This document shows, piece after piece, positions 6,295 to 64,000 of a stretch of DNA of 64,000 bases. The stretch comes from Naegleria gruberi (taxonomy: Eukaryota): NCBI GenBank assembly GCA_000004985.1, contig GG738879.1, one strand, 5' to 3'. The translations under genes and the position numbers were made by a program. Every line of letters starts with the position of its first letter. Position 1 is the first letter of the stretch. The notes under the pieces were generated by a model. That model was not told where the DNA came from. It did not search any database and worked only from the letters and a program-made list of their open reading frames with translations.

Positions 6295-6668
6295 AAAAAC
6301 TAAAATTTCTTCATGTGTAGGTTGTTATTAATTTGCTTACATGTTGAGCTTTCCCGATGCTCATTTCTGAATTGAATTAGAGTTTAAATTCTTGAATGTG
6401 AAATGTATTAATGTTAAAAATGGCTTACACACAAATTTGTTAAGCGACATGTCTTGACAATTCATAATATACTATCTTTGTATGAAATTGAAGATTTCAC
6501 AAGCTGTTGAAATAGAAATTGAAATATTGTGTTGGTACTAATCAGTAACAAATATTTTTGTTAGGTAGAACAAAATTCATTTTTCCGTCCTTTCATTGTG
6601 TGACGAGATTTCAATCTATTTTAATCAAAAAAAAATACCATCACACCTAATATTAATTGGTTAGCAAC

Positions 6669-40600: not shown

Positions 40601-41545
40601 TACGTATTCTATAAGATCAAAGAGTTAGCCACTGAAAGAAAGAAAGCTGCATTAGATACTCTCCAAGGATCTGTTAATTTTTATAATACAGAGGATGCCT
40701 CTGAAAAAGAAACAGAAGAAGAAAAATCATTCGAAATCAAATCTCTAAAAATTCAATCTCCAACGAAACAATTTTTATCACTCATTCCAATTGGTGATAT
40801 AGTTTTTAAGGGTGTAAATCTCAAAGTTTACCTTTATGAAAAGTTTACAGTTGAAAAAGATCAATTCGTTCCAGCAGGAGATTGGTTAGAGTTTGGAATG
40901 GATGACTACCAACTAAAGTTCAAACGTAAAGGACTTATGGAGGATAAATCTGTAGAAAGGTCACTGACATTGTTTTTAGCCAAAGTAGCTCTGGATAGAA
41001 TGACTACTCCAAACAAGCGATCATTTATTTTGGAGGTCCCTGGAGCTCACTTAACAATGAACTCATTACAAACAAGATCTATTCCAGATGTAATTAATTA
41101 TACATTCAAAACCAAGTTCCCTAAGGCCATTACAGTCACCACCAATTTGAATGAATATACATTCTTACAAGGTTTGATGAAGCTCTACAAATCAGAAGTT
41201 ACAAACGAATTGGAGGAACATAAGAAATCTGTACAACAACAATCATCATCTGTAATTTCCCTCACTTCTCAAAAACAAACAACAACAGATACTCAAATAT
41301 CCATATTTGGAATTCCAAAGAGAAAATTCGAAGGTACAATTCAACTAAATCCTAAGCTAAATGTTTTAGGAGATTTAACTCCTCAAGTTCAAACAGTTTT
41401 GTCATGGCTTGGAATTTCTGAAAGTATTATACCAAGAGCAGCTCATGAAGGAGTATCTGACTCTCTTGAGTCAATATTTATCATTTGTTATAGAGCTTCT
41501 GAATTGATGGATAATTTATTTGTTGAATCAACTTATGAAAAATAA
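31652..41545 (+). CDS. Giant protein (about 3283 aa) of unknown function with an IQ calmodulin-binding motif, two exons: join(31652..31998,32041..41545)
   Basis: ORF 31556..32002 ends at GA|GTGAGT. A 42-nt intron (GTGAGT...AATTAAT...TTTAG) joins it in frame to ORF 32102..41545 with no intervening stop. The first ATG of the upstream exon is at 31652. IQ motif LVQRIYRGFRARQLVKKLR at about residue 2440. Mixed beta-rich repeats, K/E-rich linkers, and no TM helices or nucleotide-binding motifs that I could recognise. Confidence 0.55.
31999..32040 (+). other. Spliceosomal intron (42 nt) joining ORF 31556..32002 to the giant ORF
   Basis: GTGAGT donor, AATTAAT internal motif, TTTAG acceptor. The frame continues open for 60 nt into the track ORF start at 32102. 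Confidence 0.5.
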
Positions 41546-44916: not shown

Positions 44917-46481
44917 ATGGCTCCAATACCAGAGTTAGAGGATGATGGTTCACTTCATGATTCGGAGAGAGACGTTTCTATGAAGGAAACACCTGCTCCT
45001 ACAAGAAAGAAAAACCAAAGCCACAAGAGAAAGAGTACAGATGATGAAGCTGTAGAGGATGCTAAAAAGAGAAAATCAAACCCTACGGAAGAGGAACAAA
45101 CAATATTGGAAGAGGAAACTTTTAGAACGGATACACCTTTCCAATCTCCTGATGTTAGGAGAAAATCAACAGGATTAAGAACTAAACCACAACAACTTAA
45201 TCAACAAGTATTCGTAAATCGCAAACATAAAAGTGTGCCTAGTAATGTTTTGGATGCAAACACATCCTATCAAACCCCTAAGAAAACTAATATTGAAGCT
45301 GAAGTTCCCCCATCCATTTCAACATTCATTCCAGAGAAACAATTCGCTATTTCAAGAAATAAGGCATCTAAAACGGGCACTTACACTATTTTAGCATCTC
45401 TAGTAGCTATTATTTCTATTGTATATTTAATATACGTTCAATATGTAACATTAGATATTCCTAAAACTAACGTAACTGAAGAAAGTAACTTATCCAATAA
45501 TACTCAAAACTCTGCTCCAATAATTAAGTACTTTTATGTAACTAACAATGTTACTAGTAATGTAAATCACTCTGAAATCTTTGAAAAATTAATTGAAAAA
45601 CATTCAAAACAATTCAAAAATAATATGCTAGATTTAATTGATACTAGATTGTATGAATTAGAAAGAAAGCTCAATAATAATATTAGAAGTTCAATCTCAA
45701 GCTCATCTGTTTCAGTGAAGAAGGAACAACAAAAAGAATTGGAAAAATTGAAAGAATCTCTTTTATCTAAAATATCAACAGAAGTTGACATTATTTTAAG
45801 TCAAAAACTCAAATCCATTAATGATATCAACGAACAATCAATCAGCGAAATCAAAGGAAGACTAGATACTATCATACCAGGTGTTAAGAATTTGATTGAT
45901 GAATCTCTTGATAAATATGATGCTGACAAGATTGGTTTGACAGATTATGCACTCAGTAGTCTTGGTTCAAAGATTGTTGAACATTCTCCAACTTATTCAC
46001 CATCAAAGTTTTGGCCTCAACTCTTTGTTCCTGTAAAGACACCCGACATGATAATCAAACCAGATACAACTATTGGTAATTGTTGGCCTATGAAAGGATC
46101 TAGTGGTTTTGTTGTTATTGAAATAGCTCATTCTATTATTCCAACCTCTTTTTCAATTGATCACGTTCCAAAAGCTCTTTCTCCAAATATTTCATCTGCT
46201 CCTAAACAAATTTCAGTCTTTGGATATGAAAATGAAACTACCTTAACTAAGCTGTCTGCATTTGAGTATGATGTTCATGGCTCTCCTACCCAAACCTTCC
46301 CAGGTAAGCATTATTTTTGTTTTGAATTGTTTTACCTTATTTTTATTTAGTAAATGAAAGTACAAATAAGAAATATAACAAATTCAGATTCCAAATCAGT
46401 GGTAACTATGGAAATAGTTTTTATACATGCATTTACAGATTCAGAATTCATGGTGACTCACAAGCTATGATGTTACATTAA
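44917..46481 (+). CDS. SUN-domain (Sad1/UNC-84) nuclear-envelope protein, two exons: join(44917..46303,46351..46481)
   Basis: Basic N-terminus, one TM helix, coiled coil, then a C-terminal SUN domain GNCWPMKGSSGFVVIEIAHSIIPTSFSIDHVPKALSPNISSAPKQISVFGYENE (human SUN1: GNCWAFQGPQGFAVVRL...EHVPKALSPNSTISSAPKDFAIFGFDED). A 47-nt GTAAGC...TTTAG intron adds ...YGNSFYTCIYRFRIHGDSQ, which matches SUN1 ...EYTCIYRFRVHGEP. Confidence 0.85.
46304..46350 (+). other. Spliceosomal intron (47 nt) in the SUN-domain gene
   Basis: G|GTAAGC...TTTATTTAG. Splicing restores the conserved SUN-domain C-terminus. Confidence 0.75.
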
Positions 46482-47299: not shown

Positions 47300-49616
47300 A
47301 TGCAAACAGTGCATAAACTCAAGTCAATCAAACAATTACGAGAGAATCAACCCTACAGTGGTTTACTATTGGAATGTATTCCCAATCCTGTAATTTTTGA
47401 ATACTATGAGGAGTTTGGAAAATATGAAATGGTATTGGAGATTTTAAATAGATCTGCAATACCTACAGCAATCCGACAAAAATCAAATTCTTCCAAATAT
47501 TTCAAAGTGAGAAGAGTGGATGCTAGTGAGGGTAAAATTGCTCCAGGATTATCAGCCAAATTCTTAGTATCTTTTTTCCCTGATTCACTTCTGGATTTTA
47601 CTGATGAAATAACATTTATCAGTGCATCCAAAGATGAAGTAGTTTTACCACTTCTAGGGAGAAGGAAAAGACCTTTACTTACCCTTCCGAGAATAATTAA
47701 TCTAGGTTATTGTTTAACAGGAACTGAAATTAGCAAGCAAATAGTGTGTAAAAATCAAGGAGGAAAAGGAAAATTTATATTTCAACAAGAATACTCGGAT
47801 CAAACAAACATCAAATTCCTTTTCTCAACACAAAATGAATTTGAGAAGGATATGGAAATTGTGGAAAAAGCACCATTTTTCGTTTCCCCAAAGTATTTCA
47901 GCCTTAATGAAGAAGAAGAGGCGCTCGTGACAGTTACCTTTAGACCAGAAGTAGTAGGGGAACAAAGCCAATCAATATTTATTATATTTGACAATGAGCA
48001 GGTATTTGAAATTCAATTAGTAGCTGAGGCTCAATATCCTAGGATTAATCTTTGCTCAATGGCAAAGAGAAAAGACTTCTTACCAGAAAGAGATTCAACT
48101 CTATTGTGTTTTGAAACAGTCTATCCATATCAAAAATCAGAATCCCAATTACTTACTCATTACAATAGCAGTGATGTGTCAGTTGAATTCGAGTGGAGAT
48201 ATATCAATGAATACGCTGACACTCCAATCTCATCGAATGGGATTAATCTTCCTTTCATGGTTAAACCAAGTATTGGAAAGATTAAACCAAGAAGTTGTAT
48301 GGCATTTGAAGTTACATTTACCCCTCAGTCATTGGGAGTATTCTCGGGATACTTCATTCTGTTTGTAAATAATGTACCTTTGCCGGTTTCCTCTGACCAC
48401 CCTTATTTTTATTACTTTAAATCGGGATTTTCATGGTTTAGAGACAGTATTCTAAATTCTCTAAAGACCTCTGATCCTCTCAGATACTTTACCCCTTACA
48501 GCTCTGAGGTTGCTGAAATTGAGAATGAATCAAAAGCAATTGCCTTAGGAGAGTCAAACTTGGTTAGTTTTGGTTCTGTACCAGTGTTTCATTGTAGACT
48601 ATTTGGTGACACAAAGAAATTGGAGGTAACTCTAAATCCACCAATTATCAATTTGAGCAATAGTATTTTTATTGGGGAAATTGTGGAAAAACAAGTGGTG
48701 ATTGTGAATAGTTCTGATTTTGATGCTTATTTTAGATGGCTTGTTTGTGAGGAGGATGATGGTCTAAAGACAGAATTTGATCCTCCTAGTGGAGTTATAG
48801 GGCCAAAAGAAAGAGTTCCAATTAAGATTTTCATTTCATGTTCAAAGCCTCAAGCATTCAACCTTTCTTGCATTTGTGAAATTGCAAACTCCGAAGAAAT
48901 AGAGCTACTGTTAAGAGGAGAAAGCAAGCCTCAGACTTTAAGAATTGACACACCATGTCTAGATATGGGGATAATTGAAACTGGAAAAGTTGTTACCGAT
49001 TGTGTGCAGATAACAAACACTTCTTCCTTAGATTTAAATTGGGCTTGTTCAACAATAGAGAATAATGCTGTCACAGTTATTCCATTCGAGGGATGCTTGC
49101 CAATAGGTAAAAGTTGTCTTGTAAACGTAAGAGTTAAGTCAGCTTATCCTCAATTCATTCAACAAATATTACGATTCGATGTTGAAAATGGAATTTCTCA
49201 ATATGTTGGTCTTAACGCCGAAATCCAATCACCTCAAGTGGTATTGGAGGAATATTTCTTTAATGTTGGAGAAATAACAATTGGCGAGTAAGTATTTATT
49301 GTTTTTGTTTGTTACTCACAACATTTTCAGTGTTGTCACAAGAACTATTAGAATGAAAAGCGTTTCTAGCATTAGTACTGAATTCTGCTGGTATGATCTC
49401 AAATTAATAGAAGACAGACCATACGAAATAGAATTCATAAATGAGAAAGGAAAATTGCAATTGGGAGAGGAAGCCGAAACAATTATAGAAATAAGAGCAA
49501 TTGCAAAAGCAGCATTATTCGAAGAACTTTTCCCATGTTTTCTTCAAGATAGCAAAGATAATTATTTTGGAATCAAGATAGTAGGAAGTATAAAGGAAGA
49601 AAATACACTAGATTAG
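47300..49616 (+). CDS. ASH/MSP (PapD-like) domain repeat protein, possibly a cilia/flagella-associated (CFAP/Hydin/DLEC1-like) protein, two exons: join(47300..49287,49331..49616)
   Basis: Repeated Ig-like units LECIPNPVIFEYYEEFGKYEMVLEILNRSAIPTAIRQ...KFLVSFFP and PPIINLSNSIFIGEIVEKQVVIVNSSDFDAYFRW.. fit the ASH-domain pattern. A 43-nt GTAAGT...TTTCAG intron at 49288..49330 joins track ORFs 47300 and 49281. Confidence 0.5.
49288..49330 (+). other. Spliceosomal intron (43 nt)
   Basis: GA|GTAAGT...TTACTCACAAC...TTTTCAG|T; restores frame to ORF 49281..49616. Confidence 0.55.
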
Positions 49617-49631
49617 ATTATGAGGTAATTG

Positions 49632-50678
49632 TTATATATTTTGTCCTGAAAAAGGTGAAATGAATTGGCCTTGAATAATCAAAGAATCCTCAGTACTAAA
49701 CAAATATCCATTCGTATGTTTTGTTGGTGGAGCGAGTGATGTCGTAATTGAAAATGAAACAATATATTCACTCAGTGAAAGTGTTTTCTCATCTTTTGTT
49801 AGCGAAACTCCCACTAAATCAATAAGAGGATGCAAGGCAATTGTGAATAAATCAATATTACAATAGCCAAGCAGTTCATCCTCTTTTTTATCTTTCGTTT
49901 TCTCGAATACTCTAATACTAACATAATCCTTAGTCAGATCCGAAATCATTGACTTGCTCGGAATAATTAAATTTGTGAAATGTTCATCAGCACTACTTGC
50001 TTCCTCCATCTCTAGTAAGTCCGAGATTGAAACGCTGGATCTCATTAGTTTTTTAGAAGTTACTTTGTCATAAACAAACTCCACATCACAGTCTTTCCAC
50101 TCAAGAAATTCATTCTTGGTTAATAGAGGGAGCTTGTAGCAAAAATTGGAAAATTCATCACCTTGGTTAAGTTGGGCAATTATATAAAGTTCAGAGGATG
50201 GACTTGCTGTTTGAGCTTCCTCTTTGATATTCAGTAATTTCAAATCTCCAACTGATATATATTTAAATGGCTTGATTGGCTTCGTACTAGTGTGTTGACT
50301 TTCATGACTATCTGCAATATAAGATGAATAGTATCTTGGTGTTTTTTGATTTTGAGGAAGTAATTGAGAGTCAATAATATTATTTAATTCCTCTTCATCT
50401 TCATCAGATTCTGTATCCTTTGGAGGTTCAATTATTTCTTCAGTCCCCTTCTTTTTCCTTCTAAAACTAAGAAAACTCCTTCTTTTCTTTTTTTCAACCG
50501 TTGATGTGCTATCAAGACTTTTTCTTGTAGGTTCAATGGTATCATGAGCTGATGGGACGTCCAAGCTTTGTCTTTCCTCGAATCGGACCGAATTATTATT
50601 GTTGTTATTATTTCCTTCATTCGGAATGTCCTTGTTTTTTTTAGACTTTTTCTTTAAACCTAATATTCCTCGAATCAT
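49632..50678 (-). CDS. Hypothetical protein with a poly-N/basic N-terminus and a C-terminal beta-rich (possibly C2-like) domain
   Basis: 348-aa ORF; no confident domain. Confidence 0.45.
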   Translation of the reverse strand: MIRGILGLKKKSKKNKDIPNEGNNNNNNNSVRFEERQSLDVPSAHDTIEPTRKSLDSTSTVEKKKRRSFLSFRRKKKGTEEIIEPPKDTESDEDEEELNNIIDSQLLPQNQKTPRYYSSYIADSHESQHTSTKPIKPFKYISVGDLKLLNIKEEAQTASPSSELYIIAQLNQGDEFSNFCYKLPLLTKNEFLEWKDCDVEFVYDKVTSKKLMRSSVSISDLLEMEEASSADEHFTNLIIPSKSMISDLTKDYVSIRVFEKTKDKKEDELLGYCNIDLFTIALHPLIDLVGVSLTKDEKTLSLSEYIVSFSITTSLAPPTKHTNGYLFSTEDSLIIQGQFISPFSGQNI

Positions 50679-51109: not shown

Positions 51110-53133
51110 ATGAGTCAAGTTTGTTATAAGAATCGTAAAGGAGATGCGGAGGATGAATTTTCGAGGTTTTCTTCCTTCACTCTTGACCATACAACACTTC
51201 GGAAGTTGTTAGTAAATTATGGTGAATATCCTTCAAAATATAGAATGCTAATTTGGAGGTTTTTATTGAATATTCCTGAAAACAAAGAGTCCTTTGAAGT
51301 ACTCTACTCTAAGGGAATTCATTTTACTCAGTACAGCCTTCACAAACGATATCCAATAAGTAATTCATCAATATTTAGGAAAATACAGAGAATCATTTCA
51401 GCTATGGCAAATCTATCACCAATTTTTGGTGCCGTGGAATATTTGCCTGAATTAATATTTCCGTTCTTAAAAGTGTTCAATCAAAGTAGCTCAACTATCT
51501 TCGAAATAGTATTAACATTCTTTGGTATGTAACAATACTTTAAAATTACGTATTAATTGATTGAATAGTTAATTGGGGAAAGGAATGGTTTGAATTCTTC
51601 CCTAATCCACCAGCAACTGTTCTTAACTATGTTGCTTCCTTGCTTCAAATTTATGACAATGACGTACTGGAGCATTTGTCATCTCTTGGGGTGTCTTCTG
51701 CTTCTTTTGCTTGGCCAATGTTAAAAAGCTTATTTACTGAGCTCTTTACAACTGATCAATGGCTAAGAGTATTTGATCATATATTTTCTAATCCTCCCTC
51801 TTTTATATTTATGTTTATTGTATCATATCTGAATTATTTTAGGAGAAGTCTTTTCCAAATTAAAGAAAGAAGAGAAGCAGAAAACTTCTTCCACAGTATT
51901 CACGCTTGTGATCTTGAAAAGATTCTAGCTTTTGCTTATGACATTCAAAAAACTCAATATGAAAGTTCTGTACAAAAGTTGATTGCCAAATCATATGGTT
52001 CATTTAGTTTCTTGCCGAAAGGTCATTATAATATTTCTATTCGCTTTCCTGAATACTCTGTAGATTATCAATTAAAGCAAAGAGAAAGAATTGTAAAAAG
52101 TGAAGAGGATTTTGATAGAGCCAGAAACAATTATATTCAATTGAAAAAGCATAATGAGGAGTTTGAAATAGAGCATAGGAACTGGTTAATAAGACAAAAA
52201 GCATTAATTGAAGTAAGCAAAACGCAAGAAGAAGCTTCAAAGAAAATGGAAAGAGAAATATTGGAGGAAAAAGAGAGAGTTAGACAAATGGAATTGGAGG
52301 AGCGCTTAAAAAATGTAGAATACTTGCAAGAAAGAAGAAAGATGTTAGCCAATTTACATGAGGCTGAATTGAATGCGAAGACATTAAATCAACAAAGATA
52401 CATGGAAAATCTAACAATTGACACACATAATGAGATCAAACACAAAATGACGGAAATGCAATTAGGGGAAATCGAAAAAATGGAGCAAGCTAAATTGCAA
52501 GATATTGAGTGTTTCGTAAATCCTCCATCCAATTACTATTTTACAAAGAACCCATCTGCAACTTCACCAAGAAAACCAGAAACTGTAAATATCAAACCAC
52601 TTGCAAAAGAGGTTATTATCCCTGTATTTATCCCACCTGAACAGGCAAAACAGCCAGTTTCAGAAGCGATAACAAAGGACACGACAGAGATTAACTCTCC
52701 TGAAATGTCAGAGCCGAATTCTAAAGAATCAAGTTTTGCAGATTGTCTTCAAGTGCATCTACTAGGAAATGAAATTAATTCCTTAGAAAAAGAAATAGAA
52801 TCAACAGGAAAGAATCTGACTCCAAAAGATATCAAACTTCAGGCCATCATACAACCTGAAATCCCTCAAAAGAAAAAAGTGAAAAAAAAGAAAAAATTGG
52901 TAGAAAAGTCTAATGAACAAACATTAAAACAGAAGAAGAAAGAAGCATCTCCAAAAAAGGCTGTTACACTTCCTTCGCTCAAACAGATGAACTCACGAAT
53001 GAGAAAACAAAACAAAAAGTATTACCAGAAAAGCAAAGGCAAGCAAAATCTCCAAAAAGAAAGAGCCCAAAGAAGAAGGAAATCAAAGAAAGCAATCTTA
53101 AGGAGAAACCACAAGAAATGGTCACCCCGTTAG
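51110..53133 (+). CDS. TBC (Rab-GAP-like) domain protein with a long C-terminal coiled coil and K-rich tail, two exons: join(51110..51524,51569..53133). It may be catalytically inactive: no IxxDxxR arginine finger was seen.
   Basis: YRMLIWRFLLNIP and ...NWGKEWFEFFPNPP...LLQIYDNDVLEHLSSLGVSSASFAWPMLKSLFTELF are TBC-domain helices. A 44-nt GTATGT...ATTAAT...GAATAG intron joins the two track ORFs. The 3' end is uncertain; see the frameshift finding. Confidence 0.6.
51525..51568 (+). other. Spliceosomal intron (44 nt) in the TBC gene
   Basis: G|GTATGT...GTATTAATTG...AATAG|TT; phase 1 on both sides. Confidence 0.6.
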
Positions 53134-53262
53134 GTCATACTTCCCAAATTTCAACAAGTTCAAACTCATCCCAACCGGATGAGGATCGATTCAGATTATT
53201 ACAAGAACAAATATCAAAACAAAAATCAGAGCTCAAAAAATCAGATAGGACTATGAAACATA

Positions 53263-54132
53263 TTGAATCGATTGCATCAAACATTTCCAAACCATCAAGT
53301 AAATCCTTCAAACATTTCAAGGAGTATTTCATCATCCCCATCTATTGAGAGCTTAAAGAACACCAATGTTTTTAATAGGTTTGATTATTTAAAGAGCGTA
53401 GATTCTAGAGTTGATGATTTAATTCAAAAGAAGTTTAAGGAGTTTATTACAAGAAAGGTTGAACAACCAAGAGAAAAGAGTTTTAATGTTGAAGAGCAAA
53501 ACCTTTCGTTCCCTACAAGCATATCAAACACAAACAGCGCATCAATACTTAACTCCTCTGCATCAACACAGTCACCAAATCCAACACGAAATAGCACTCT
53601 CAGAGGAACAATATCTGCCACTCTTAACCCAAGTTTTTCTCAAACTTCTTACTTGGCTCCTTCTTCATGTATTGATAAATCCAGTGACAATGAGAGCTCT
53701 TCAGATGTGAACTCTTTATTAAGACATAGTAGCGAATTTGAGACAACATCCTCTAAAAGAATGAACCTTTCTTCTGATTCACATTTATACTCAGCATCCC
53801 CAAGATCCTATTCTGGAAGTTCAGGTTACAAATCGAAGACTACAACAGGTACATCCGGATCTCATGTAATTAATGCATATGTTTCCATTTCTGAAGCTCC
53901 TTATCATACCAAGACATCAGATGAAATAGTTAATGAGATTTCAGATACAAGAAGTATTGATGAATTACTTGAGAGTTTCAACACGTCCTATCCTTCAATT
54001 TCAAGCAGTATAGAATCAATTAAGATCAAGCCACAAGACTATTCCTCCCTTGATCTAAGTTTTTTTAGTGACGAAGATGAAGTTACGACAAGTGTAAATA
54101 CTTCAGCATTAATGACAGAAAAAGAATTTTAA
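53263..54132 (+). CDS. Ser-rich low-complexity ORF with no in-frame ATG start; probably a frame-shifted continuation of the upstream reading frames (53118..53348 and the TBC gene)
   Basis: Three overlapping forward ORFs (TBC frame to 53133, frame A 52917..53348, frame B 53257..54132) all read as plausible protein. No 38-51 nt GT..AG element explains the shifts. Confidence 0.3.
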   Translation: MNRLHQTFPNHQVNPSNISRSISSSPSIESLKNTNVFNRFDYLKSVDSRVDDLIQKKFKEFITRKVEQPREKSFNVEEQNLSFPTSISNTNSASILNSSASTQSPNPTRNSTLRGTISATLNPSFSQTSYLAPSSCIDKSSDNESSSDVNSLLRHSSEFETTSSKRMNLSSDSHLYSASPRSYSGSSGYKSKTTTGTSGSHVINAYVSISEAPYHTKTSDEIVNEISDTRSIDELLESFNTSYPSISSSIESIKIKPQDYSSLDLSFFSDEDEVTTSVNTSALMTEKEF

Positions 54133-57100
54133 TTCTTAATAAATTTCTCAGCTTCAAGTTCAGCATCAACATTGTGAGTTTCAATAATAGGTATTGGTTG
54201 TTGGTTTTGCTTCATGTTATCGTCTCCTATTGGAATAACAATATCATACTTATCAATATCTCGTTTCATACTCTTAGACATTTCTTCTAAAGAGATGTCC
54301 GTTTCGTTTGGAATAGGATGTTGGTAATGTTTCTCTTTGAGAATGTAGGTAGTAATTTGTCCTTTACCTTTGATTTCAACACCTTTTCTCTCATCGAATT
54401 CAAAGATATCATAGACTCTTTCGTAGGTTTGTCTGGTTACTTGGATTTTACCTGGAATACCAGTTGATTCCATTTTAGATGCAAGAGTAACATTTTCACC
54501 CCACAAATCATAAGCAAATTTCAATGTACCAATACAACCAGCAATTACACTTCCTGTGTGTAACCCAATTCTAATATTTAAAGTTGTTTTCTTTTCTAGA
54601 TTATACGCATAAATAACAGAATACATCTCCATAGCAAATCTTAATACTTTTTCTGGATGGTCTGATTGTTGAAGATGTAAACCTCCAACACAAAAGTAAG
54701 CATCACCACTAAATTGTAATTCAGATTATTATCTAATTTTCAAGCAACTTACATTGTTTTAATTTTTTCGAGTCCAAATTTGCTAATACCTCTATCGAAT
54801 CCGTTAATAATAGCATTCAACATTTGAATCAAATCAATAGCTGACATGCCTGATGACATTTTGGTAAAGTTAACCATATCACTAAATAAGCAAGTGGTAT
54901 CATCAATTTTTTCTGAAATGTAGGTTTCACCAGCTTTTAACTATTATTTTACAGTAAATGTTCAATAACAAAACTTACTCTTGCAGCTACTTGCTCAGGA
55001 AGAATATTCAAAAGTAAAGAATCACTCTTCTTCTTTTCTTCTTCAATTAACATATTATGTTTCTTCTCTGAAGTGATATCTTTGATAAACAAACTGATTA
55101 GGTTACTCTTTTCAAATGATGAGACACTCATGGATACTTGAGCAGGGAATGTTGTTCCATTCTTTCTTTTAGCTTCCACCTCAAAAGACTCTCCATAACT
55201 TCTTATGGCATTACCCATCGATGTTACTGTATCTCTTATCTTATTAGAGCTTGCATCTGTAAATAAAAGAGATGGTGGCTTTCCTAATATTTCATCAGCC
55301 TTATAACCCAACATATTCAAAGCACTTGGATTGATAATATCAACAAACCCTGTTTTGCTATTCAACACAACAGCTCCATCAACAGCAGCATCTACAAAAA
55401 GTTTAGAACATGAGCAGGCTTGAAAACTTACCCAAAATAGCTTTTGTCTTTGAAAATTTCTCTCCTTTTGCAGCCTTCTTACCATCAGAAAATGTAAAGT
55501 ATAAAATATAGTTCCTAATCTCCTCGAATTGCTCCAAAACATCATATTGAATGAAATTAAACATCCTTCTTAATTGGTGGTTTTCATTATCGAATCTTTT
55601 GACTTGTAAATACTTTGTGTAAGTCAATATAAGTAATATTGCAACAGAAACGCTTGTTATTGCTGGACTGATAATTCTAGTAGGTGATTTGTAAGTGTCT
55701 ACATATCCAGTAAGTACAGAATACATTTTGGAAGTGAATTCACTGGAAATGGCAAAAATTCCAATAAATCTTTCTACCAAAACACTATTAATATATGTAT
55801 GTCTGTATGCATCCTCATTGAATCTATCTGCTGATAAAGTATATGCATCCATGAGTTGATCCAATCCATAACAAGTGTAGTTTTCTGCAGTGCAGTTTTG
55901 GCTCAAAATCTTGATATCTAAAGAAGAAACTCCTGTTATGCCAGAAAATCCATTCTCAATTGTACCGTAACGATAATCTAACCAGGCTTCCATCATCTGT
56001 TGTGAATGTTGAATTATTTCATCGTGGAATGATTTCATGCTAGTTTGTAATATTGAAGAGTCACCTAATAAAAGTTCTCCAAGTTTAAATTTAGCTCTTT
56101 GTGAAATTTGTAATACCTTTGTACCATGCTCTACCTTTAACATAGTGTTGAATGAAGTCTGCATCATGTCCAAGCACTCATAAAGGAGTAAAGCACTTGC
56201 AATAGCAGTGAAGAGGAAAATAGCAATAATGAGTGCTGAAATTATTCTCTTAGGAGTGAAAATAGATTTTTGGATTTTCACAATCTTATCCTCGGATTTT
56301 TGTTCCAAATGGTGAAATACTGTACCCACAATATCCTTAGGAAGCTTTGCAAAAAGCTTTGTTAATTTTTCCATATGAAGTAAGTGAATATAAGAGAAAA
56401 TTGTGTAGACAATAATGAATAGCACGTATACCACAAACACACCAACAAGGGTAAAAATGAAAACATTCTTTTCCTGATTAAGAAAAGTGTCACTTCTTGC
56501 GATCAAAGTGCCACAAAAACTTTCCAGACCACCAGTAATGGCTATTCTGTTTAGCCATATATACAAGAACTCATAATTTTCATAAATATTCATGTAATCA
56601 TCAAGTTTCCAAGCATATAGCTTTGTAGCAATAGTGTGGAGCTCATTTGTAATATCAGATAAGGAAGTATTTTTAGGGGTTGATATAAGACTGGATACAG
56701 ATCCTGTTTGTAGTACTGGAACAAGAACTATTTTGTCTGCATAAACAAACTGCTTCATACTCTCTACCTCAAATCTTTGTTCGTTCATAATATCTTTAAC
56801 CTTTTGTGTAATTGTCACTATGCTCTTAACTCTTGCCTTGTGGTTTGCCCATTCTGATTTAAATCTATTGGTAGTGTTGGTTGGAGATAATATCTGAATG
56901 TACCTAATACCTGAAAGAATTAAGTAGGGAACAGGAGACACTTGGCAAAATTGATTTACAGTAGTAATACGGTCGCTATCATCTGCAAGTCCCAGATTCA
57001 ACCCTAAAACAATTGCAATAATAGCAATTGATATAAATCCCAATGATTGAAGGAAAATAAATTTCTTTTTGCTTTCGTTTGGCTTGTTGATGGCTGACCT

Positions 57101-59120
57101 GTATATAGTTTGTTTGTCTTTTTTGTAATCTCCATATTGACTAGCTGATTCCAAATTTTCCATATCGTTCTCATCTTGTTTTGGTTCTAAGTAATTTGGA
57201 CCATCATCTACATAATTGACAGGTAACACCTTGTTGCCTGGTAAATTACGTTTCTTAAATTCTGACTTTGAGTCAGAGGAAAATCTTCGTTTCTTTGATT
57301 GTTCATCCTCCAAAATGTTTGCTTCAGCATAAAATTCATCTGCCAATTCAGCTTCAAAAAGGAATTCTTCTAAAAACTTTGCATAGCTTCTCAATACTTG
57401 GGCGTTATTATGGAAATTAACAAGTAAGTTATTGAACGTTGTACTTGAATTTTCCATGTATGTGTGCATCATTTTAACCAAACTATATACCTTTTCCGAG
57501 TTTTCCTCATTAGACACAAAGTGTTTCCAGAATAGCTTTTGATATTGTCTTAATCTTTCCTGTTGTTTCTCCACAGTGTCAAGAATGTGTCTAAGTTCTA
57601 AAGAATTTTTTCCTGTTGAAATTGAAGCCTCTATTTCCTTAGTTCTTTGGTAAACAAGGTAACGTAATACAAGATTAGAGTTCTTTTTACCTGCCTTTGC
57701 AAGTAGGTGAAGGCAAAAGCTTGGTGAATATTGATCTCCCATCATTTTCTTAAATATATATAAAGATGAAATTATCAGAGTGTAGGTATCTAATTCTAAT
57801 CTTTGATTTGTAGCAACCTTTATCAAGTTGGTTATTAACTCATCTTCTTTAGTTTTGATAGAGAATTTCAAATATAAGTTTAAAAATTTTGGATTGACTA
57901 ATTCATTAACACTAGTTTGAACGGTGATATTCTCGTTCTTGAAATCAGTTAATCTTCTTCTGACATATCTCATAACTATCTGTGTATAAATTTCAACAAT
58001 AGAAAATCCAATAAAGAAAAATATAATCACAGAGCCAAATCCAACACCAAAAAGATAACCCAAACCAACATCTTCACTTACAGGATCATTCGCTACAATG
58101 GCCAGTATGCTGGATATTGCAGCACCTGCTTTAGATAAGTACAACCCACCAAAAATCGAATTCACAATTCTATAGTGAAATGGTAAATCATAAATTAGAA
58201 AACCAAATATAAGGAGTGTGAAAAATAAAAAGAGTAAAGGTCTTGCAATAAATGCTTGGGGTGGTAATATTTGAGAAATGATTAAGTGGATTTGGTTGAT
58301 TACTACAGCAGAAGCAAATACAACAGGGCTGTCCATACTTAGCCAAGACTTACCCTCAACCCATGTGTCACACGATAGAAGTATTCCAAGAAATGTGAGA
58401 GGTAATTGTAATATCATAAATAAAAGTGATATGGCTGCAAAGGAACCATTTAAAGGACTCCAACAACCTATGGTAGGAAACCTTCTTAGAGCATATTGAG
58501 CAACTCCATCCACTACTAGACCTTGTTTAGAATAATCACAAGCCCAAAAAGCGGTCAAGCAAAATACAAATCCAAGTCCGAACACTCCAAAGAACATGCA
58601 TATAGCTCTAATTGTATTCTTGATTTTTGATGAATGCTTACTTCCTCTATGAAGAGCTTTATAAGCATAGTAGATTGCAACCAGAGCTATCAACTCTAAC
58701 ACAGCAAGTATTACAGCAACGGCAAGAAAGAGCTCATAAGGATACCAACTGGCACCTAATGTTCTTGGAACTGCAATAATCCTAACACCTAATTTTGCAG
58801 ACTCACCCCAATTAAATTCTAAGATGGTTAATAAATACATTATTTCAGGAATACTTACCAGACTCCCAACCTAGAGCTATTGATTGCTCGACCAATACTA
58901 TATTCAATAATATGAAAAGCCAATTTGGTAATGCTTTTGGCAATTTTATAGAAACTAGAAAGAAGAATAATGTATCTTCTAATTTTCCAACAATACTACT
59001 ACCCCGAGTGAGGGTTGTATTACTAGTTTTTGATCTACTAGAAGAGCCTTTTGAAAAAACCGACTCTCCATCATGTCCTACGGGTGAATGATCACTAGAG
59101 TCTCGCATCGAGTAGGCCAT
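54129..59120 (-). CDS. Membrane-bound PAS-domain adenylyl cyclase (class III nucleotidyl cyclase), five exons: complement(join(54129..54708,54753..54940,54979..55391,55432..58818,58859..59120)), about 1609 aa
   Basis: Exon 1 is a Ser-rich cytoplasmic N-terminus. Exon 2 is a region of about 1100 aa with two TM clusters and two large inter-TM domains. Exon 3 is a PAS domain (AILGDAAVDGAVVLNSKTGFVDIINPSALNMLGYKADEILGK). Exons 3 to 5 form the cyclase domain: LLNILPEQVAARLKAGETYISEKIDDTTCLFSDMVNFT...GLEKIKTIGDAYFCVGGLH...IRIGLHTGSVIAGCIG...YDLWGENVTLASKMESTG. Substrate-specifying residues are Lys (before TIGD) and Asp (YDLWG), which indicates adenylyl cyclase. Introns of 40, 40, 38 and 44 nt. Total 4830 nt. 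Confidence 0.75.
54709..54752 (-). other. Spliceosomal intron (44 nt) in the cyclase catalytic domain
   Basis: Minus strand: ...AAAACAAT|GTAAGT...AATTAGATAATAAT...TTTAG|TGGTGATGC. Splicing yields KIKT-I-GDAYF. Confidence 0.75.
54941..54978 (-). other. Spliceosomal intron (38 nt) between the PAS and cyclase exons
   Basis: Minus strand: GCAAGA|GTAAGT...AATAATAG|TTAAAAGCT. Splicing yields QVAAR-LKAGETYIS. Confidence 0.7.
55392..55431 (-). other. Spliceosomal intron (40 nt) before the PAS exon
   Basis: Minus strand: ATTTTGG|GTAAGT...TTTTGTAG|ATGCTGCTG. Splicing yields KAILG-DAAVDG. Confidence 0.7.
58819..58858 (-). other. Spliceosomal intron (40 nt) after exon 1 of the cyclase gene
   Basis: Minus strand: GAGTCTG|GTAAGT...ATTTATTAACC...CTTAG|AATTTAATTGG. 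Joins ORF 58845..59120 to ORF 55403..58840 (…GWES-EFNWGESAK…). Confidence 0.7.
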
Positions 59121-59416: not shown

Positions 59417-60241
59417 ATGATGCGCTTCAGAGCAAGTGTAAAGTTATTGAATAGGTTTGTTAGTGATTACACAAGCACAAAATACCTTTCGGAAGAAACT
59501 GAACTTCTATGCAAAATAGTTGCCAATTCAACTTTAGGAAATTATAAGAAATTAGAAAATGATTGGAAATTAATTCAACAACATCCAACAAAGAGCAGAA
59601 TGTTATCCATGATGGCCATAGAATTAATTTCAATGAATTTTTGTTTTGTTGGATTTCCAAAAGTTTTAAATTCCTTGTCAACTTTAAAATCCATCTCTAC
59701 TAAATCACATGACAATCAAAAGCCATTTTTTACCGAAGATGAATGGCTTGAATTGACTAAATTATCGGATTCTGATTCTTTCCATCAAGATAGAATTAAG
59801 AGACAACATTTAGGAGAACAAACAATGAAGAAAATTTATGGAGAATCAAATTATTCAAAGTTAGCTGCAAAGTTTAAAACACTTCATCCATTAGTCAACC
59901 AAAATATTCACATGAATGCTTATGGAATGGTATTACAAGATAGAAGTCATGTTTTTCTTGCAATGAGAGAGCTTTCCTCGGTTGTGAGTTTGTGTTATTT
60001 TGTAGATACATGTGGCCCTCAATTAGTTGCTCATATGAAAGGTTTTACCAGAGTGTACGATGAAAAGGAATTAGGATATTCCATCCCACTAATGAATCCT
60101 CATGTTATTGAAACAGAAAGTCGTGCCAAGTTGTGTTTGAAAGGAGTTTTCGAATTGACCAGTGAAATGTATGGCCTTAAAGAACCTTTGAATGAAATGT
60201 GGCAATCTCTAGAAACCTCAAATAAGAAATATACTCTCTAG
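59417..60241 (+). CDS. Hypothetical protein, possibly mitochondrial (N-terminal MMRFRASVKLLNRFV presequence-like segment)
   Basis: 274-aa ORF; no confident domain. Confidence 0.45.
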   Translation: MMRFRASVKLLNRFVSDYTSTKYLSEETELLCKIVANSTLGNYKKLENDWKLIQQHPTKSRMLSMMAIELISMNFCFVGFPKVLNSLSTLKSISTKSHDNQKPFFTEDEWLELTKLSDSDSFHQDRIKRQHLGEQTMKKIYGESNYSKLAAKFKTLHPLVNQNIHMNAYGMVLQDRSHVFLAMRELSSVVSLCYFVDTCGPQLVAHMKGFTRVYDEKELGYSIPLMNPHVIETESRAKLCLKGVFELTSEMYGLKEPLNEMWQSLETSNKKYTL

Positions 60242-61555: not shown

Positions 61556-64000
61556 TTATTCAATTAAATCAAATACACTTTGAACAACCTCTGCATGTCT
61601 TTCAGAGAATGTGTTGATTAAGAACATGATAAGCTTCTTTTGCAAGTCTGGAGTTAATTTCGATTTTCTATCCTTATTATTATTAATAATTTTGTATAAA
61701 ATAGAGTCACGAATCATATTTTCCTCATTTCCAGAATTAGCCTCCTTGATGAGATGGAGGAGTTGAACTGAAACATAGAATGATGATGTGTAAATATTGA
61801 GAAGAATATCTAGTTTGGTTTGTTCCTCGACTTCTGTTTCCTTTTCATAGAAATCACAATAAATATCTGTTGCAATCAAAAGTCTATCCAATAACTTTTG
61901 TTGATTTTCCATAATTACCCTATTATCTGATGGAATACCTTTGTAGATAGAAATTAATAAATCAACAGCACCCTTATAGCTCTCATTTGCCCAATTTTGG
62001 TTTGGTTCCTCAATAGCAAGATCAGTTGCAAGTTGGGCTTGATAGTATGTTAGTTTGAGGAAATAAGAGGCAGAATTTGCTGTGTTAAAATTATTGTTAG
62101 CAACGGATGCAAGTTTCAACAGAGATAATCTGTTTCTGGTGGTTCCAAGCTCTCCTAATGGAAGGATGTTTTGTGAGTAGTCATCTGACAAATCAGCCAA
62201 AGAGGATTCAACTTCACCCAAGTTTCCAACTTGGATATAGTGCAACCATTTGAGGTTGGAGTTTGGTTCAATAACTGAGGCCATTTGTTCTCCACATCTG
62301 AAACTCCAATTGTTTGCCAATAACTCGTGATACTTTTTAGAATCTCTAAGATATGTTAATAGATATGTTGCAAAGTCTTTGTATCTCTTTACATAATGAG
62401 AATATTTAACAGTTCTTTCCTTTTCAGTTGGATAGTTCTCCTCTGCTATTTGTATCAAGTGTTTGAAATCTCTATATTTTTCTGCTAAGGTTAAGGCAAA
62501 AGTCTTTGGTGAAATTTCTCCAACATCCTTCATCTTTCTGAATGTACCAATTATTAAATCTCTTTTAGCCTCAAAATTGAATGTCTGGAAATGAGAAACC
62601 TCTTTTTCTTTCATGGTTTGAAGAATTGAAAATGTAAAATCTGCTATTTCATACATTTGGTTGAGTATTTGAGGGACTGATTTACTTTCTGAAGCGCTAA
62701 GATTACTGGCTGATCTTTCAAATTGTTCAAAAAATCTTGTAATAAGGAGACCTGGCTTATCAATTGTCCACGTACTTCCACATTCTTTAATATTGGTACC
62801 AAATCTATTCAATACCTTCCTAAATTCAAGTATCCCTTCTGAAAAGCATAAAAAGACTTGATTTACAAGAGATAATGTGTTATAAGTGGTTTGACTAGAA
62901 ATAATCTTTTCAGATTGAATTTGATAAATCAAACTTTCAACTCTTGAAACAAGAATGTAGAAATTTTCAACATTACATTGCGATTTGGTAAAATTAGCCT
63001 CTTCACAGCATAAGTTCATAGCTTGAATAATCAAATCTTGAGATGATTTTGATCCAAGTTGATTTTGTAACTCTCTTAACTTGATGCAAACAAAGAGCTT
63101 TTCACCATTTTGTAAAATTATTCTTAAATCCTCTTCTGAAAGGTTTTCAATAATTTGGTAGTCAACTAGGTATTGTAAGAAGTCCATATATTCATCCATC
63201 TTTTTTTGCAATGATCTTAAAATCAAAATAGATAGTTTGTCGTAATAAATCATTTCAGCATCAATAATCAAACTACCGGATGTTGGAATGCTATCTACCA
63301 ACATTTGACTAGCTCTAACAATAGATGGTCCAAAAACAGAGGAGCGAATGAAATTTAAAGAGCTGATTTTCTCACGTTTTCTAAAATTGCTTAAAACCTT
63401 ATTAGCAAGAGTAGTTTCTGCTTCTTTTGGATCAGAATCCGATTCTTGATCCATGGATTGATCTACACAGTTTGATGCCAGACTCATACTATCTTCCAAT
63501 TTAACAATCCTCAGTGCCTTGAAATTTCCTGATTTATCAATTAAGCAACCATCCAAACCATCAATCATAATATCTCCTAGAGAAATAATACCATTGTAAT
63601 CACATTGTGTAATAATTTTGTTGTCTTCAATTACAGTAATACTATTCAAAGTATGTACATAAAGTCTATTGCAACTCTTCATAATTTGACATTTGGAATA
63701 GAATTTAGAGTTGATTTCACTAAAATCACACTTATCTAAGCGGATAGGTGATTCTACAACAATATTGTCGTTAATTTGGATTGGCCATAAAAGATATTCG
63801 ATAGTTGAACTACTTCTGGCAGTATCAAGTGGTTCTGGAACCATACATGTTAAAAGATAAATCTGTTCAGTTTGTTCATCAAAATTAAAATCTAACAGTC
63901 TCAATGAATAGTTTCTTATCATGTTCAAGCTTTGTAACTCATGAGAAATGTCCTTTCTCCAACAAAGATCCTTTCCTTGCTCTGTATATTTCGAGATACA
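61556..64000 (-). CDS. Nucleoporin Nup133-like protein (C-terminal alpha-solenoid plus part of the N-terminal region). It is truncated: the reading frame continues beyond the window end at 64000.
   Basis: ...TFALTLAEKYRDFKHLIQIAEEN...YVKRYKDFATYLLTYL...LKWLHYIQVGNLGEVESSL resembles the NUP133 C-terminal region (FALELAEKYCDFDILVQMCEQ...) as I recall it. The track ORF 61556..63928 starts at a TTG, with no in-frame stop between it and the window edge. Confidence 0.5.
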   Translation of the reverse strand, partial: CISKYTEQGKDLCWRKDISHELQSLNMIRNYSLRLLDFNFDEQTEQIYLLTCMVPEPLDTARSSSTIEYLLWPIQINDNIVVESPIRLDKCDFSEINSKFYSKCQIMKSCNRLYVHTLNSITVIEDNKIITQCDYNGIISLGDIMIDGLDGCLIDKSGNFKALRIVKLEDSMSLASNCVDQSMDQESDSDPKEAETTLANKVLSNFRKREKISSLNFIRSSVFGPSIVRASQMLVDSIPTSGSLIIDAEMIYYDKLSILILRSLQKKMDEYMDFLQYLVDYQIIENLSEEDLRIILQNGEKLFVCIKLRELQNQLGSKSSQDLIIQAMNLCCEEANFTKSQCNVENFYILVSRVESLIYQIQSEKIISSQTTYNTLSLVNQVFLCFSEGILEFRKVLNRFGTNIKECGSTWTIDKPGLLITRFFEQFERSASNLSASESKSVPQILNQMYEIADFTFSILQTMKEKEVSHFQTFNFEAKRDLIIGTFRKMKDVGEISPKTFALTLAEKYRDFKHLIQIAEENYPTEKERTVKYSHYVKRYKDFATYLLTYLRDSKKYHELLANNWSFRCGEQMASVIEPNSNLKWLHYIQVGNLGEVESSLADLSDDYSQNILPLGELGTTRNRLSLLKLASVANNNFNTANSASYFLKLTYYQAQLATDLAIEEPNQNWANESYKGAVDLLISIYKGIPSDNRVIMENQQKLLDRLLIATDIYCDFYEKETEVEEQTKLDILLNIYTSSFYVSVQLLHLIKEANSGNEENMIRDSILYKIINNNKDRKSKLTPDLQKKLIMFLINTFSERHAEVVQSVFDLIE

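What the first reader, a model, noticed from the sequence alone, without database searches (positions are those of the whole stretch)
54129..59120. Five-exon gene for a roughly 1600-aa multi-pass membrane protein that fuses a PAS domain to a single class III adenylyl-cyclase catalytic domain
The ORF track shows three unconnected minus-strand ORFs plus an apparently non-coding gap. Four 38-44 nt GT..AG introns join them in frame into one 4830-nt CDS. The central exon encodes about 1100 aa with two TM clusters and two loop domains of roughly 180 aa each, which could be extracellular sensors. A PAS domain and a cyclase domain follow, with Lys/Asp specificity residues that indicate ATP as substrate. 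A single catalytic domain implies a homodimeric enzyme. The canonical transition-state Asn and Arg appear as Thr and Lys (WGENVTLASKM versus WGNTVNVASRM), so activity or regulation may be non-canonical. This differs from the 12-TM two-domain metazoan ACs and from the dictyostelid ACA, ACG and AcrA architectures I know. It may be an unusual sensory cyclase.
Basis: partly seen in the sequence, partly recalled or inferred. Interest (0 to 1): 0.8.

Follow-up and report, generated by a model that had tools for sequence, protein, structure and literature searches.

The report
Naegleria membrane PAS adenylyl cyclase gene
This is a correctly reconstructed five-exon gene of the amoeba Naegleria gruberi for a large membrane receptor-type adenylyl cyclase; the gene is already in GenBank and belongs to a big family typical of these amoebae, and its one unusual feature is that two normally invariant catalytic residues are replaced in it and in its orthologues.

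Summary
Four GTAAGT..TAG introns (40, 40, 38 and 44 nt) join five minus-strand exons into a 4830-nt, 1609-aa ORF. All four junctions align without gaps to orthologues. Pfam finds one complete cyclase domain, a PAS domain and a TmcB-type TPR domain.

The window is Naegleria gruberi. The gene is already public as NAEGRDRAFT_69664.

The architecture is not unusual for this lineage. At least 47 database representatives share the same N-terminal module and also carry a cyclase-domain match, nearly all with PAS. The named ones come from Naegleria, Willaertia, Acrasis, Pharyngomonas and Phalansterium.

The metal-binding Asp pair and the Lys/Asp ATP-specificity pair are canonical. Asn→Thr and Arg→Lys are real. 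They are conserved in N. fowleri and N. lovaniensis, and Willaertia has Ile/Lys. None of the 151 related cyclase domains compared has Lys at the Arg position, and 99% keep Asn.

Verdict: a new member of a known kind, of modest interest. Whether the protein is catalytically active remains untested.

The parts
54129..59120 (-). Whole gene from ATG to TAA: 4830-nt spliced CDS encoding 1609 aa. It is N. gruberi NAEGRDRAFT_69664.
58859..59120 (-). Exon 1 (aa 1-87 plus 1 nt): Ser-rich cytosolic N-terminus and a weak first TM helix.
58819..58858 (-). Intron 1, 40 nt, GTAAGT..TAG.
   Evidence: also used in public model P0300
55432..58818 (-). Exon 2 (aa 88-1216): the whole membrane and sensor module.
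55392..55431 (-). Intron 2, 40 nt, GTAAGT..TAG. It lies at the start of the PAS domain.
   Evidence: The ENA ORF call P0003 reads through the equivalent intron after KTKAIL. The N. lovaniensis gene is interrupted at the same place.
54979..55391 (-). Exon 3 (aa 1217-1354): PAS domain and most of the helical linker.
54941..54978 (-). Intron 3, 38 nt, GTAAGT..TAG.
54753..54940 (-). Exon 4 (aa 1355-1416): first part of the cyclase domain, including metal-binding Asp1375 and Lys1415.
54709..54752 (-). Intron 4, 44 nt, GTAAGT..TAG. It lies between Thr1416 and Ile1417.
54129..54708 (-). Exon 5 (aa 1417-1609 plus stop): the rest of the cyclase domain and a poorly conserved C-terminal tail.
57971..58967 (-). 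First TM cluster (aa about 52-370, spanning intron 1). The model shows seven helices, and exon 1 adds one weak one. The TM2-TM3 loop carries a beta-hairpin with conserved Cys181 and Cys206.
57272..57970 (-). Cytosolic all-helical TPR-like domain (aa 371-603). Pfam TPR_TmcB matches aa 494-596. A disordered linker follows at aa 604-650.
56369..57070 (-). TM8, loop 1 and TM9 (aa 671-904). Loop 1 is aa 702-869 (window 56474-56977), a helical bundle with a beta-hairpin and conserved Cys712 and Cys856.
55607..56266 (-). TM10, loop 2 and TM11 (aa 939-1158). Loop 2 is aa 974-1132 (window 55685-56161), a four-helix bundle with conserved Cys1063 and Cys1070.
55072..55444 (-). PAS domain (aa 1213-1323, spanning intron 2). 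It lacks the FixL-type haem-binding His, and I saw no LOV-type Cys motif.
54917..55071 (-). Helical linker between PAS and the cyclase domain (aa 1324-1362, spanning intron 3). It is the most conserved segment, 97% and 85% identical to the two orthologues, and gives a weak match to the C-terminal end of HNOBA. It corresponds to the cyclase transducer element.
   Evidence: The transducer-element assignment rests on my own knowledge (Ziegler et al. 2017).
54336..54916 (-). Class III cyclase homology domain (aa 1363-1541, spanning intron 4). Key residues are D1375, K1415, D1419, R1463, D1484, T1491 and K1495.
54474..54488 (-). Codons Thr1491 (ACT, 54486-54488) to Lys1495 (AAA, 54474-54476). These are the positions of the canonical transition-state Asn and Arg.
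58172..58483 (-). Coding segment aa 200-303 (TM3-TM5). The public 1471-aa model wrongly removes it as an intron.
   Evidence: Columns are conserved in A1.
57980..58081 (-). Coding segment aa 334-367 (TM7). The public model wrongly removes it, using an in-frame GTAAGT..CAG.

Best explanation
This is Naegleria gruberi gene NAEGRDRAFT_69664. It belongs to a large heterolobosean family of receptor-type class III adenylyl cyclases.

Shown by tool results:
- Five exons encode 1609 aa.
- The N-terminal 1200 aa form a membrane module. It has about eight TM helices, then a TPR-like (TmcB-type) helical domain, then TM8, loop 1, TM9, TM10, loop 2 and TM11.
- The two loops fold as four-helix bundles and carry family-conserved cysteine pairs.
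- The C-terminus holds a PAS domain, a highly conserved helical linker and one complete cyclase homology domain. That domain has both metal-binding Asp residues and the Lys/Asp pair that specifies ATP.

Inferred:
- The topology is N-in and C-in with 12 TM helices, the TPR domain on the cytosolic side and both bundles outside the cell.
- The protein dimerises through the cyclase domain.
- A signal sensed by the extracellular double bundle, and/or by the PAS domain, passes through TM11, PAS and the coiled-coil linker to the catalytic dimer. This changes the rate of cAMP synthesis.
- The orthogroup-specific Asn→Thr/Ile and Arg→Lys replacements remove the ribose-orienting Asn. They keep only a positive charge at the phosphate-stabilising position. 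I therefore expect a low-turnover enzyme whose domain is still functional, not a dead relic.
For: Gene model.

Domains: Guanylate_cyc E=1.3e-55, PAS_9 E=4.7e-16, TPR_TmcB E=1e-11.

Solved relatives by sequence: AC9, AC8 and AC5 (C1 and C2 domains) and mycobacterial Cya/Rv1625c.

Catalytic residues: D1375, D1419, K1415 and D1484 are canonical. T1491 and K1495 stand at the Asn and Arg positions. The roles of the six residues follow PMC4174876.

Orthologues: N. lovaniensis 67%, Willaertia 54%, and N. fowleri FDP41_009996. A convergent RabGAP-TBC neighbour is present in both genomes.

Family: 230 representatives match the N-terminal profile. Of the best 150 listed, 47 new ones also carry a cyclase-domain match, nearly all with PAS. 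Named members come from Naegleria, Willaertia, Acrasis, Pharyngomonas and Phalansterium.

Purifying selection: the cyclase domain is 87% and 72% identical to the two orthologues, and the linker 97% and 85%. These are the most conserved parts of the protein.

Topology: the six cysteines conserved in 78-100% of family members all lie in predicted extracellular segments.
Against: There are no transcript data, no enzyme assay and no topology experiment.

Asn and Arg are otherwise near-invariant: 99% and 100% of 151 related domains. From my own knowledge, mutating them in mammalian and mycobacterial enzymes lowers kcat by one to two orders of magnitude (Yan et al. 1997 J Biol Chem; Guo et al. 2001 EMBO J). 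Real catalytic output may therefore be negligible.

The function of the first eight-TM cluster and of the TPR domain is unknown. Foldseek found no PDB match at E<=1e-3.
Confidence: 0.72

Rival explanations
1. The protein is a regulatory or heterodimerising subunit, not an autonomous enzyme. Paired with a canonical paralogue, it would donate its intact metal-binding Asp residues to one fully canonical active site. Its own Thr/Lys half-site would form a degenerate, possibly regulatory, nucleotide pocket. This would be analogous to the C1/C2 asymmetry of mammalian cyclases.
For: The Thr/Ile and Lys replacements are restricted to this orthogroup. They are conserved across Naegleria and Willaertia. 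All paralogues with the same architecture whose motif could be read keep Asn/Arg, so many potential partners exist in the same cell. The metal-binding Asp residues are intact. The one-canonical-site, one-pseudo-site precedent is described in PMC4174876.
Against: The Lys1415/Asp1484 specificity pair of the supposedly degenerate half-site is fully conserved in all orthologues. A site that had lost its function would not be expected to keep it. There is no evidence of heterodimers in this family. Lys preserves the positive charge.
Confidence: 0.2
2. The N-terminal module is a transporter or channel fused to a cyclase, not a ligand receptor. Precedents, from my own knowledge, are the K+-channel cyclases of Paramecium and Plasmodium and the P-type ATPase guanylyl cyclases of alveolates.
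For: The first cluster of about eight TM helices has no assigned function. The weak top Foldseek rows include SUR1 and glutamate-transporter chains, E 0.06-0.5. The ATPase-cyclase precedent appears in PMC6592433, which I saw only as a listed abstract.
Against: None of those Foldseek matches is significant, and there is no Pfam transporter or channel domain. The only confident fold similarity is to sensor-type four-helix bundles.
Confidence: 0.08
3. The ORFs are separate genes or a pseudogene, or the enzyme is a guanylyl cyclase.
For: None beyond the raw ORF track.
Against: The spliced product aligns end to end with 1582-1626-aa orthologues in four other species-level genomes. The cyclase profile is matched across introns 3 and 4 without a break. 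Lys/Asp, not Glu/Cys, occupy the specificity positions.
Confidence: 0.02

Closest known systems
Heterolobosean TmcB-like PAS cyclases. Orthologues: N. fowleri FDP41_009996, N. lovaniensis C9374_010202, Willaertia magna ABK040_006139. Paralogues include N. gruberi NAEGRDRAFT_73946, N. fowleri FDP41_007387 and Acrasis kona KAL0483827 'adenylate cyclase'.
   Same: Same full architecture over 1400-1800 aa: TM cluster, TPR_TmcB domain, two TM-flanked loops, PAS and one cyclase domain. All are known only from genome annotation; I found no functional study.
   Different: The paralogues keep the canonical Asn/Arg (DLWGDTINVASRM). Only the orthogroup of this gene has Thr/Ile and Lys, plus Val→Cys at position 1475.
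Cyanobacterial GAF/PAS adenylyl cyclases. These are the Microcoleus and Oscillatoria hits; from my own knowledge the type is Anabaena CyaB1.
   Same: The PAS, helical linker and single class III cyclase domain module is up to 45% identical over 86% of the PAS-cyclase query. All carry the canonical D/N/R pattern at the substrate-Asp, Asn and Arg positions.
   Different: They are soluble and have GAF or receiver domains in place of the 1200-aa membrane module. They keep canonical Asn/Arg.
Mycobacterial membrane cyclase Rv1625c/Cya (PDB 1yk9, 4p2f, 7yzk)
   Same: Membrane anchor plus one cyclase domain that must dimerise. The same six-residue catalytic scheme, D256/D300, K296/D365 and N372/R376.
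   Different: It has only six TM helices, with no TPR domain, no loop bundles and no PAS. Asn and Arg are present.
Mammalian membrane adenylyl cyclases (AC9, AC8, AC5)
   Same: Best-scoring solved relatives of the catalytic domain, E about 1e-70. They are ATP-specific with Lys/Asp.
   Different: They have two cyclase domains (C1 and C2) in one chain, 2x6 TM helices, no PAS, and G-protein regulation. Here there is one domain and a different membrane module.
Dictyostelium TmcB/TmcC ('tiny macrocysts' proteins), which give Pfam PF25474 its name
   Same: They share the TPR_TmcB domain (E=1e-11).
   Different: I could not retrieve these proteins or any paper on them. Whether they share the rest of the membrane module or any cyclase domain was not tested.
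Four-helix-bundle sensor domains of bacterial chemoreceptors and sensor kinases (Tar, Tsr, PcaY, NarQ, TorS) and the NasR NIT domain
   Different: Sequence identity is 6-14%. Designed bundles score nearly as high, so this is a resemblance of fold and arrangement, not demonstrated homology. Here two bundles sit in one chain, and they carry disulfide-type cysteine pairs.

Membership tests
Class III nucleotidyl cyclase (Pfam PF00211) | Full-length match to the cyclase homology domain profile | tested here: met
   188 bits, E=1.3e-55, profile positions 3-182 of 183, aa 1363-1541. PDB relatives at E about 1e-70.
Class III nucleotidyl cyclase (Pfam PF00211) | Two metal-binding aspartates | tested here: met
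   D1375 (FSDMVNF) and D1419 (IGDAYF) align with the AC9 C1 aspartates. They are conserved in 97% and 93% of 151 related domains.
Class III nucleotidyl cyclase (Pfam PF00211) | Transition-state Asn (ribose-orienting) | tested here: not met
   Thr1491 here, and Thr in N. lovaniensis and N. fowleri, Ile in Willaertia. The position is Asn in 99% of 151 related domains.
Class III nucleotidyl cyclase (Pfam PF00211) | Transition-state Arg (phosphate-binding) | tested here: not met
   Lys1495 here and in all four orthologues. The position is Arg in 100% of 151 related domains.
Class III nucleotidyl cyclase (Pfam PF00211) | Catalysis as a head-to-tail dimer | not testable with these tools
   There is only one cyclase domain per chain. 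Whether the dimer is homo- or heteromeric is unknown.
Adenylyl (as opposed to guanylyl) cyclase | Lys and Asp at the two substrate-specifying positions (guanylyl cyclases have Glu and Cys/Ser) | tested here: met
   K1415 (KIKTIGD) and D1484 (YDLWG) align with the AC9 C2 Lys and Asp. They are conserved in all orthologues.
Adenylyl (as opposed to guanylyl) cyclase | Measured cAMP synthesis | not testable with these tools
   This needs an enzyme assay.
PAS domain | Profile match above the curated cut-off | tested here: met
   PAS_9 scores 59.4 bits against a cut-off of 27, and PAS scores 34.6 against 22.6. The closest solved relatives are FixL haem-PAS domains at E=1.8e-4, but the haem-ligating His is absent.
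Heterolobosean TmcB-like membrane PAS cyclases (database family, not described in the literature) | Homology across the whole 1100-aa N-terminal module, followed by PAS and a cyclase domain | tested here: met
   The profile of aa 89-1216 hits 230 representatives, many of them over positions 1 to about 1120. Of the best 150 listed, 47 new ones carry a cyclase-domain match, nearly all with PAS. Pfam TPR_TmcB scores 45.2 bits against a cut-off of 27.
Metazoan-type membrane adenylyl cyclase | Two cyclase domains (C1 and C2) and 2x6 TM helices in one chain | tested here: not met
   There is one cyclase domain only. The TM layout is 8+1+2+1, with TPR and loop domains.
Four-helix-bundle (4HB_MCP / NIT-like) extracytoplasmic sensor domains | TM-flanked antiparallel four-helix bundle with sequence-profile membership | tested here: inconclusive

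The most novel reading that the evidence does not exclude
The Thr/Lys orthogroup (N. gruberi, N. fowleri, N. lovaniensis; Ile/Lys in Willaertia) could be a natural intermediate between symmetric homodimeric and asymmetric heterodimeric class III cyclases. In that reading the subunit keeps an intact metal half-site and a nucleotide-specific but non-catalytic half-site. It would work only together with a canonical paralogue, or as a nucleotide-sensing regulator. Alternatively, it could be a cyclase that really uses Lys in place of the invariant Arg.
Probability: 0.2. Interest if true: 0.55.

Novelty: new member of a known kind. Interest (0 to 1): 0.3.

Why it matters
In practical terms, the reconstruction corrects a public gene model. 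NAEGRDRAFT_69664 / XP_002675302 lacks 138 residues, which is four transmembrane helices.

Biologically, Naegleria has one of the largest cyclase repertoires known; the genus pangenome paper PMC9928731 counts at least 81. None of its membrane PAS cyclases has been studied.

This orthogroup is a clean natural experiment on two of the six canonical catalytic residues. It is conserved in the brain-eating N. fowleri. Testing it would show whether Lys can replace the invariant Arg, or whether single-domain cyclases can evolve asymmetric partnerships.

The predicted double four-helix-bundle ectodomain also gives a concrete handle for finding ligands. None of this is surprising in kind, so the finding is of moderate to low interest.

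Tried and rejected
- Alternative splice combinations: 80 in-frame, stop-free GT..AG sets exist. I rejected them because only the GTAAGT set matches the orthologues without gaps.
- Word-index searches with the full protein and with the N-terminus found only 3-4 relatives of the membrane module. The exhaustive profile search was needed.
- Literature on TmcB or 'tiny macrocysts' gave no relevant paper.
- No paper mentions the locus tags NAEGRDRAFT_69664, XP_002675302, D2VL52 or FDP41_009996.
- Fritz-Laylin & Cande 2010 (expression during differentiation) is not held. I did not locate the Cell 2010 genome paper.
- The search for the cyclase transducer element gave nothing useful.
- Foldseek against the PDB gave no match at E<=1e-3.
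- The afdb50 library is unavailable.
- Haem-PAS idea: the closest solved PAS domains are FixL and EcDOS, but the proximal His position is not His.
- LOV idea: I saw no NCRFL-type Cys motif in the PAS sequence.
- Second cyclase in the window: none.
- The intron motif count is only marginally above chance, so I did not use it as evidence.
Full report
**Observation**

The minus strand between 54129 and 59120 carries ORFs of 91, 1145, 198, 42 and 167 aa that are not connected. Reading the sequence and enumerating GT..AG introns shows four short introns that all start GTAAGT and end TAG. They are 58858-58819 (40 nt), 55431-55392 (40 nt), 54978-54941 (38 nt) and 54752-54709 (44 nt).

Other in-frame combinations are possible (80). 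Only this set reproduces the orthologue sequences without a gap at all four junctions (GWES|EFNWGE, KTKAIL|DAAVDG, QVAAR|LKAGETY, EKIKT|IGDAYF). Only this set lets the Pfam cyclase profile match from position 3 to 182 of 183 without interruption across introns 3 and 4. A count of the bare intron motif in the window is only marginally above chance, 11 against 5.1 expected, so I do not rely on it.

**Identity of the locus**

The window has 33% G+C and short introns. Its other genes are ordinary eukaryotic ones: CFAP65/HYDIN-like, SUN domain, protein kinase, RabGAP-TBC, HORMA, DPP-IV peptidase, OYE-type flavin oxidoreductase and RRM proteins.

The best relatives of the spliced protein are hypothetical proteins of N. 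lovaniensis (1619 aa, 67% identity, 98% coverage) and Willaertia magna (1582 aa, 54%). The 90% cluster of a 100%-identical ENA fragment contains N. gruberi XP_002675302.1 / NAEGRDRAFT_69664 / UniProt D2VL52, a 'predicted protein' of 1471 aa. The window is therefore N. gruberi, and the gene is already public.

That model uses the same four introns. It additionally splices out aa 200-303 (window 58483-58172) and aa 334-367 (58081-57980). Both segments are transmembrane helices with many invariant columns in the orthologue alignment.

The N. fowleri orthologue is FDP41_009996 (1626 aa). In N. lovaniensis the gene is interrupted at positions equivalent to introns 2 and 3. It has the same convergent RabGAP-TBC neighbour as the window. 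An environmental metagenome contig is 99.5% identical to window 52433-57788.

**Anatomy**

Pfam finds three domains:

| Domain | Residues | E-value |
|---|---|---|
| Guanylate_cyc | 1363-1541 | 1.3e-55 |
| PAS_9 | 1223-1323 | 4.7e-16 |
| TPR_TmcB | 494-596 | 1e-11 |

There is also a weak match of aa 1329-1355 to the C-terminal end of HNOBA.

I predicted two AlphaFold models, and both are confident:

| Model | Residues | Sequences aligned | pLDDT | pTM |
|---|---|---|---|---|
| 1 | 89-1216 | 44 | 84.6 | 0.63 |
| 2 | 665-1165 | 40 | 88.5 | 0.82 |

Hydropathy and these models give the following layout:
- a weak TM helix in exon 1;
- seven TM helices (aa about 115-362), with a beta-hairpin in the TM2-TM3 loop;
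- an all-helical TPR-like domain (aa about 371-603);
- a disordered stretch (604-650);
- TM8 (671-698), loop 1 (702-869), TM9 (870-904);
- a short cytosolic turn;
- TM10 (939-973), loop 2 (974-1132), TM11 (1133-1158);
- PAS, a helical linker and the cyclase domain.

With the cyclase in the cytosol, this implies 12 TM helices with both termini inside, the TPR domain cytosolic and both loops outside. This topology is an inference. It is supported by the cysteines. The only cysteines conserved in 78-100% of 44 family members are C181/C206, C712/C856 and C1063/C1070. All six lie in the predicted extracellular segments.

**The loop domains**

**Catalytic centre**

I aligned the domain to AC9 C1 and C2. 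I took the six-residue scheme from the Rv1625c structures: D256/D300 for metal, K296/D365 for substrate, N372/R376 for the transition state (PMC4174876).

| Role | Canonical residue | This protein |
|---|---|---|
| Metal binding | Asp | D1375 |
| Metal binding | Asp | D1419 |
| Substrate specificity | Lys | K1415 |
| Substrate specificity | Asp | D1484 |
| Transition state (ribose) | Asn | T1491 |
| Transition state (phosphate) | Arg | K1495 |

R1463 and the KGKG motif are also present. The ATP assignment and the N→T and R→K observation are both correct.

I then compared 151 related cyclase domains, namely the closest PAS-cyclases and the paralogues with the same N-terminus. Asn is present in 99% and Arg in 100%. 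The orthogroup has T/T/I and K/K/K. N. fowleri also has WGETVTLASKM. The only other orthogroup-specific change at a highly conserved column is Val→Cys at 1475. The remaining differing columns are conservative or confined to one orthologue.

The cyclase domain (87% and 72% identity to the two orthologues) and the preceding linker (97% and 85%) are the most conserved parts of the protein. The domain is therefore under strong constraint and is not decaying.

**Family context**

A profile of aa 89-1216 searched against 1.84 billion representatives finds 230 proteins at E<=1e-3. Many are 1400-1800 aa and match over the whole module. Of the best 150 listed, 47 new ones also contain a cyclase-domain match, nearly all with PAS. 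Every one with a readable motif has the canonical DxWGDxxNxxSRM.

Named members come from N. gruberi, N. fowleri, N. lovaniensis, Willaertia magna, Acrasis kona (annotated 'adenylate cyclase'), Pharyngomonas kirbyi and the amoebozoan Phalansterium. Several public models are split or truncated at introns.

The PAS-linker-cyclase portion is next most similar to cyanobacterial GAF/PAS cyclases, up to 45% identity. The large number of membrane cyclases in Naegleria is published: at least 81 in the genus pangenome (PMC9928731). I found no paper on this architecture or on this gene.

**Mechanism**

Best-supported reading: a receptor-type adenylyl cyclase that dimerises through its single catalytic domain. 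It is regulated by its extracellular double bundle and/or its PAS domain, through the conserved coiled-coil linker. From my own knowledge this linker is the cyclase transducer element of class IIIa/b enzymes.

The PAS ligand is unknown. The nearest solved PAS domains are FixL-type (E=1.8e-4), but the haem-binding His is absent.

The Thr/Lys replacement should lower turnover. From my own knowledge, mutating the Asn or the Arg costs 30-100-fold in kcat in mammalian IIC2 and abolishes activity in Rv1625c.

Because Lys1415 and Asp1484 remain strictly conserved, the half-site probably still binds ATP. I judge a low-turnover homodimeric enzyme most likely. The main rival is a heterodimer with a canonical paralogue: one canonical site and one pseudo-site, as in mammalian C1/C2. 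I give that about 0.2. Separate genes, a pseudogene and a guanylyl cyclase are excluded by the data.

**Verdict**

The observation and most of the interpretation are correct, and the gene model improves on the public one. However, the gene is already known as a predicted protein. Its architecture is the standard one of a large heterolobosean family, and class III receptor cyclases with PAS domains are a known kind.

The conserved orthogroup-specific loss of the transition-state Asn and Arg is the only unusual feature, and it is worth a bench test. Novelty: new member of a known kind. Interest: about 0.3.

Noticed in passing
window 58172-58483 and 57980-58081 (minus strand): The public N. gruberi model NAEGRDRAFT_69664 / XP_002675302.1 (1471 aa) treats these two in-frame stretches as introns. 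The orthologues show that they encode conserved TM helices (aa 200-303 and 334-367), so the database model lacks 138 residues.
   Followed up: yes
window 53263-54132 (+) and 51640-53133 (+): A convergent plus-strand ORF ends at 54132 and overlaps the cyclase stop codon by 4 nt. The ORF upstream of it carries the C-terminal half of a RabGAP-TBC domain. N. lovaniensis has a convergent RabGAP-TBC gene at the same place, so synteny is conserved. The two window ORFs are probably exons of one gene.
   Followed up: partly
window 52695/52696; locus L001 5094-5123: A metagenome contig (ENA ERZ929261) is 99.5% identical to the window over 5.1 kb. It carries a 30-nt insertion inside the neighbouring RabGAP-like gene, so an N. 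gruberi-like strain is present in that environmental sample.
   Followed up: no
window 32102-41545 (+): An uninterrupted 3147-aa ORF with no Pfam match at E<=1e-5. It is a giant protein of unknown function.
   Followed up: no
window 543-3788 (-), 6657-8264 (+), 18952-20202 (+), 49632-50678 (-), 59417-60241 (+), 61556-63928 (-): Six further long ORFs (274-1081 aa) have no Pfam domain at the thresholds used.
   Followed up: no
window 47300-49291 (+), 44917-46350 (+), 20785-22422 (+): A CFAP65/HYDIN-like Ig-repeat protein (a flagellar protein), a SUN-domain protein and a HORMA-domain protein lie in the same window. This fits an amoeboflagellate genome.
   Followed up: no
protein clusters of P0174 and P0169 (N. 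fowleri FDP41_007427/007428 and FDP41_003060): Several public paralogue models in N. fowleri and N. gruberi are split into adjacent genes or truncated: a 1512-aa 'PAS domain-containing protein' next to a 178-aa 'Guanylate cyclase domain-containing protein', and a 951-aa TmcB-only model. The family appears to be systematically mis-modelled at its short introns.
   Followed up: partly
window 54534-54536 (Cys1475): Besides Thr1491 and Lys1495, the orthogroup has Cys where 97% of related cyclase domains have Val (AGCIG against AGVIG). This third orthogroup-specific change lies close to the active site.
   Followed up: no
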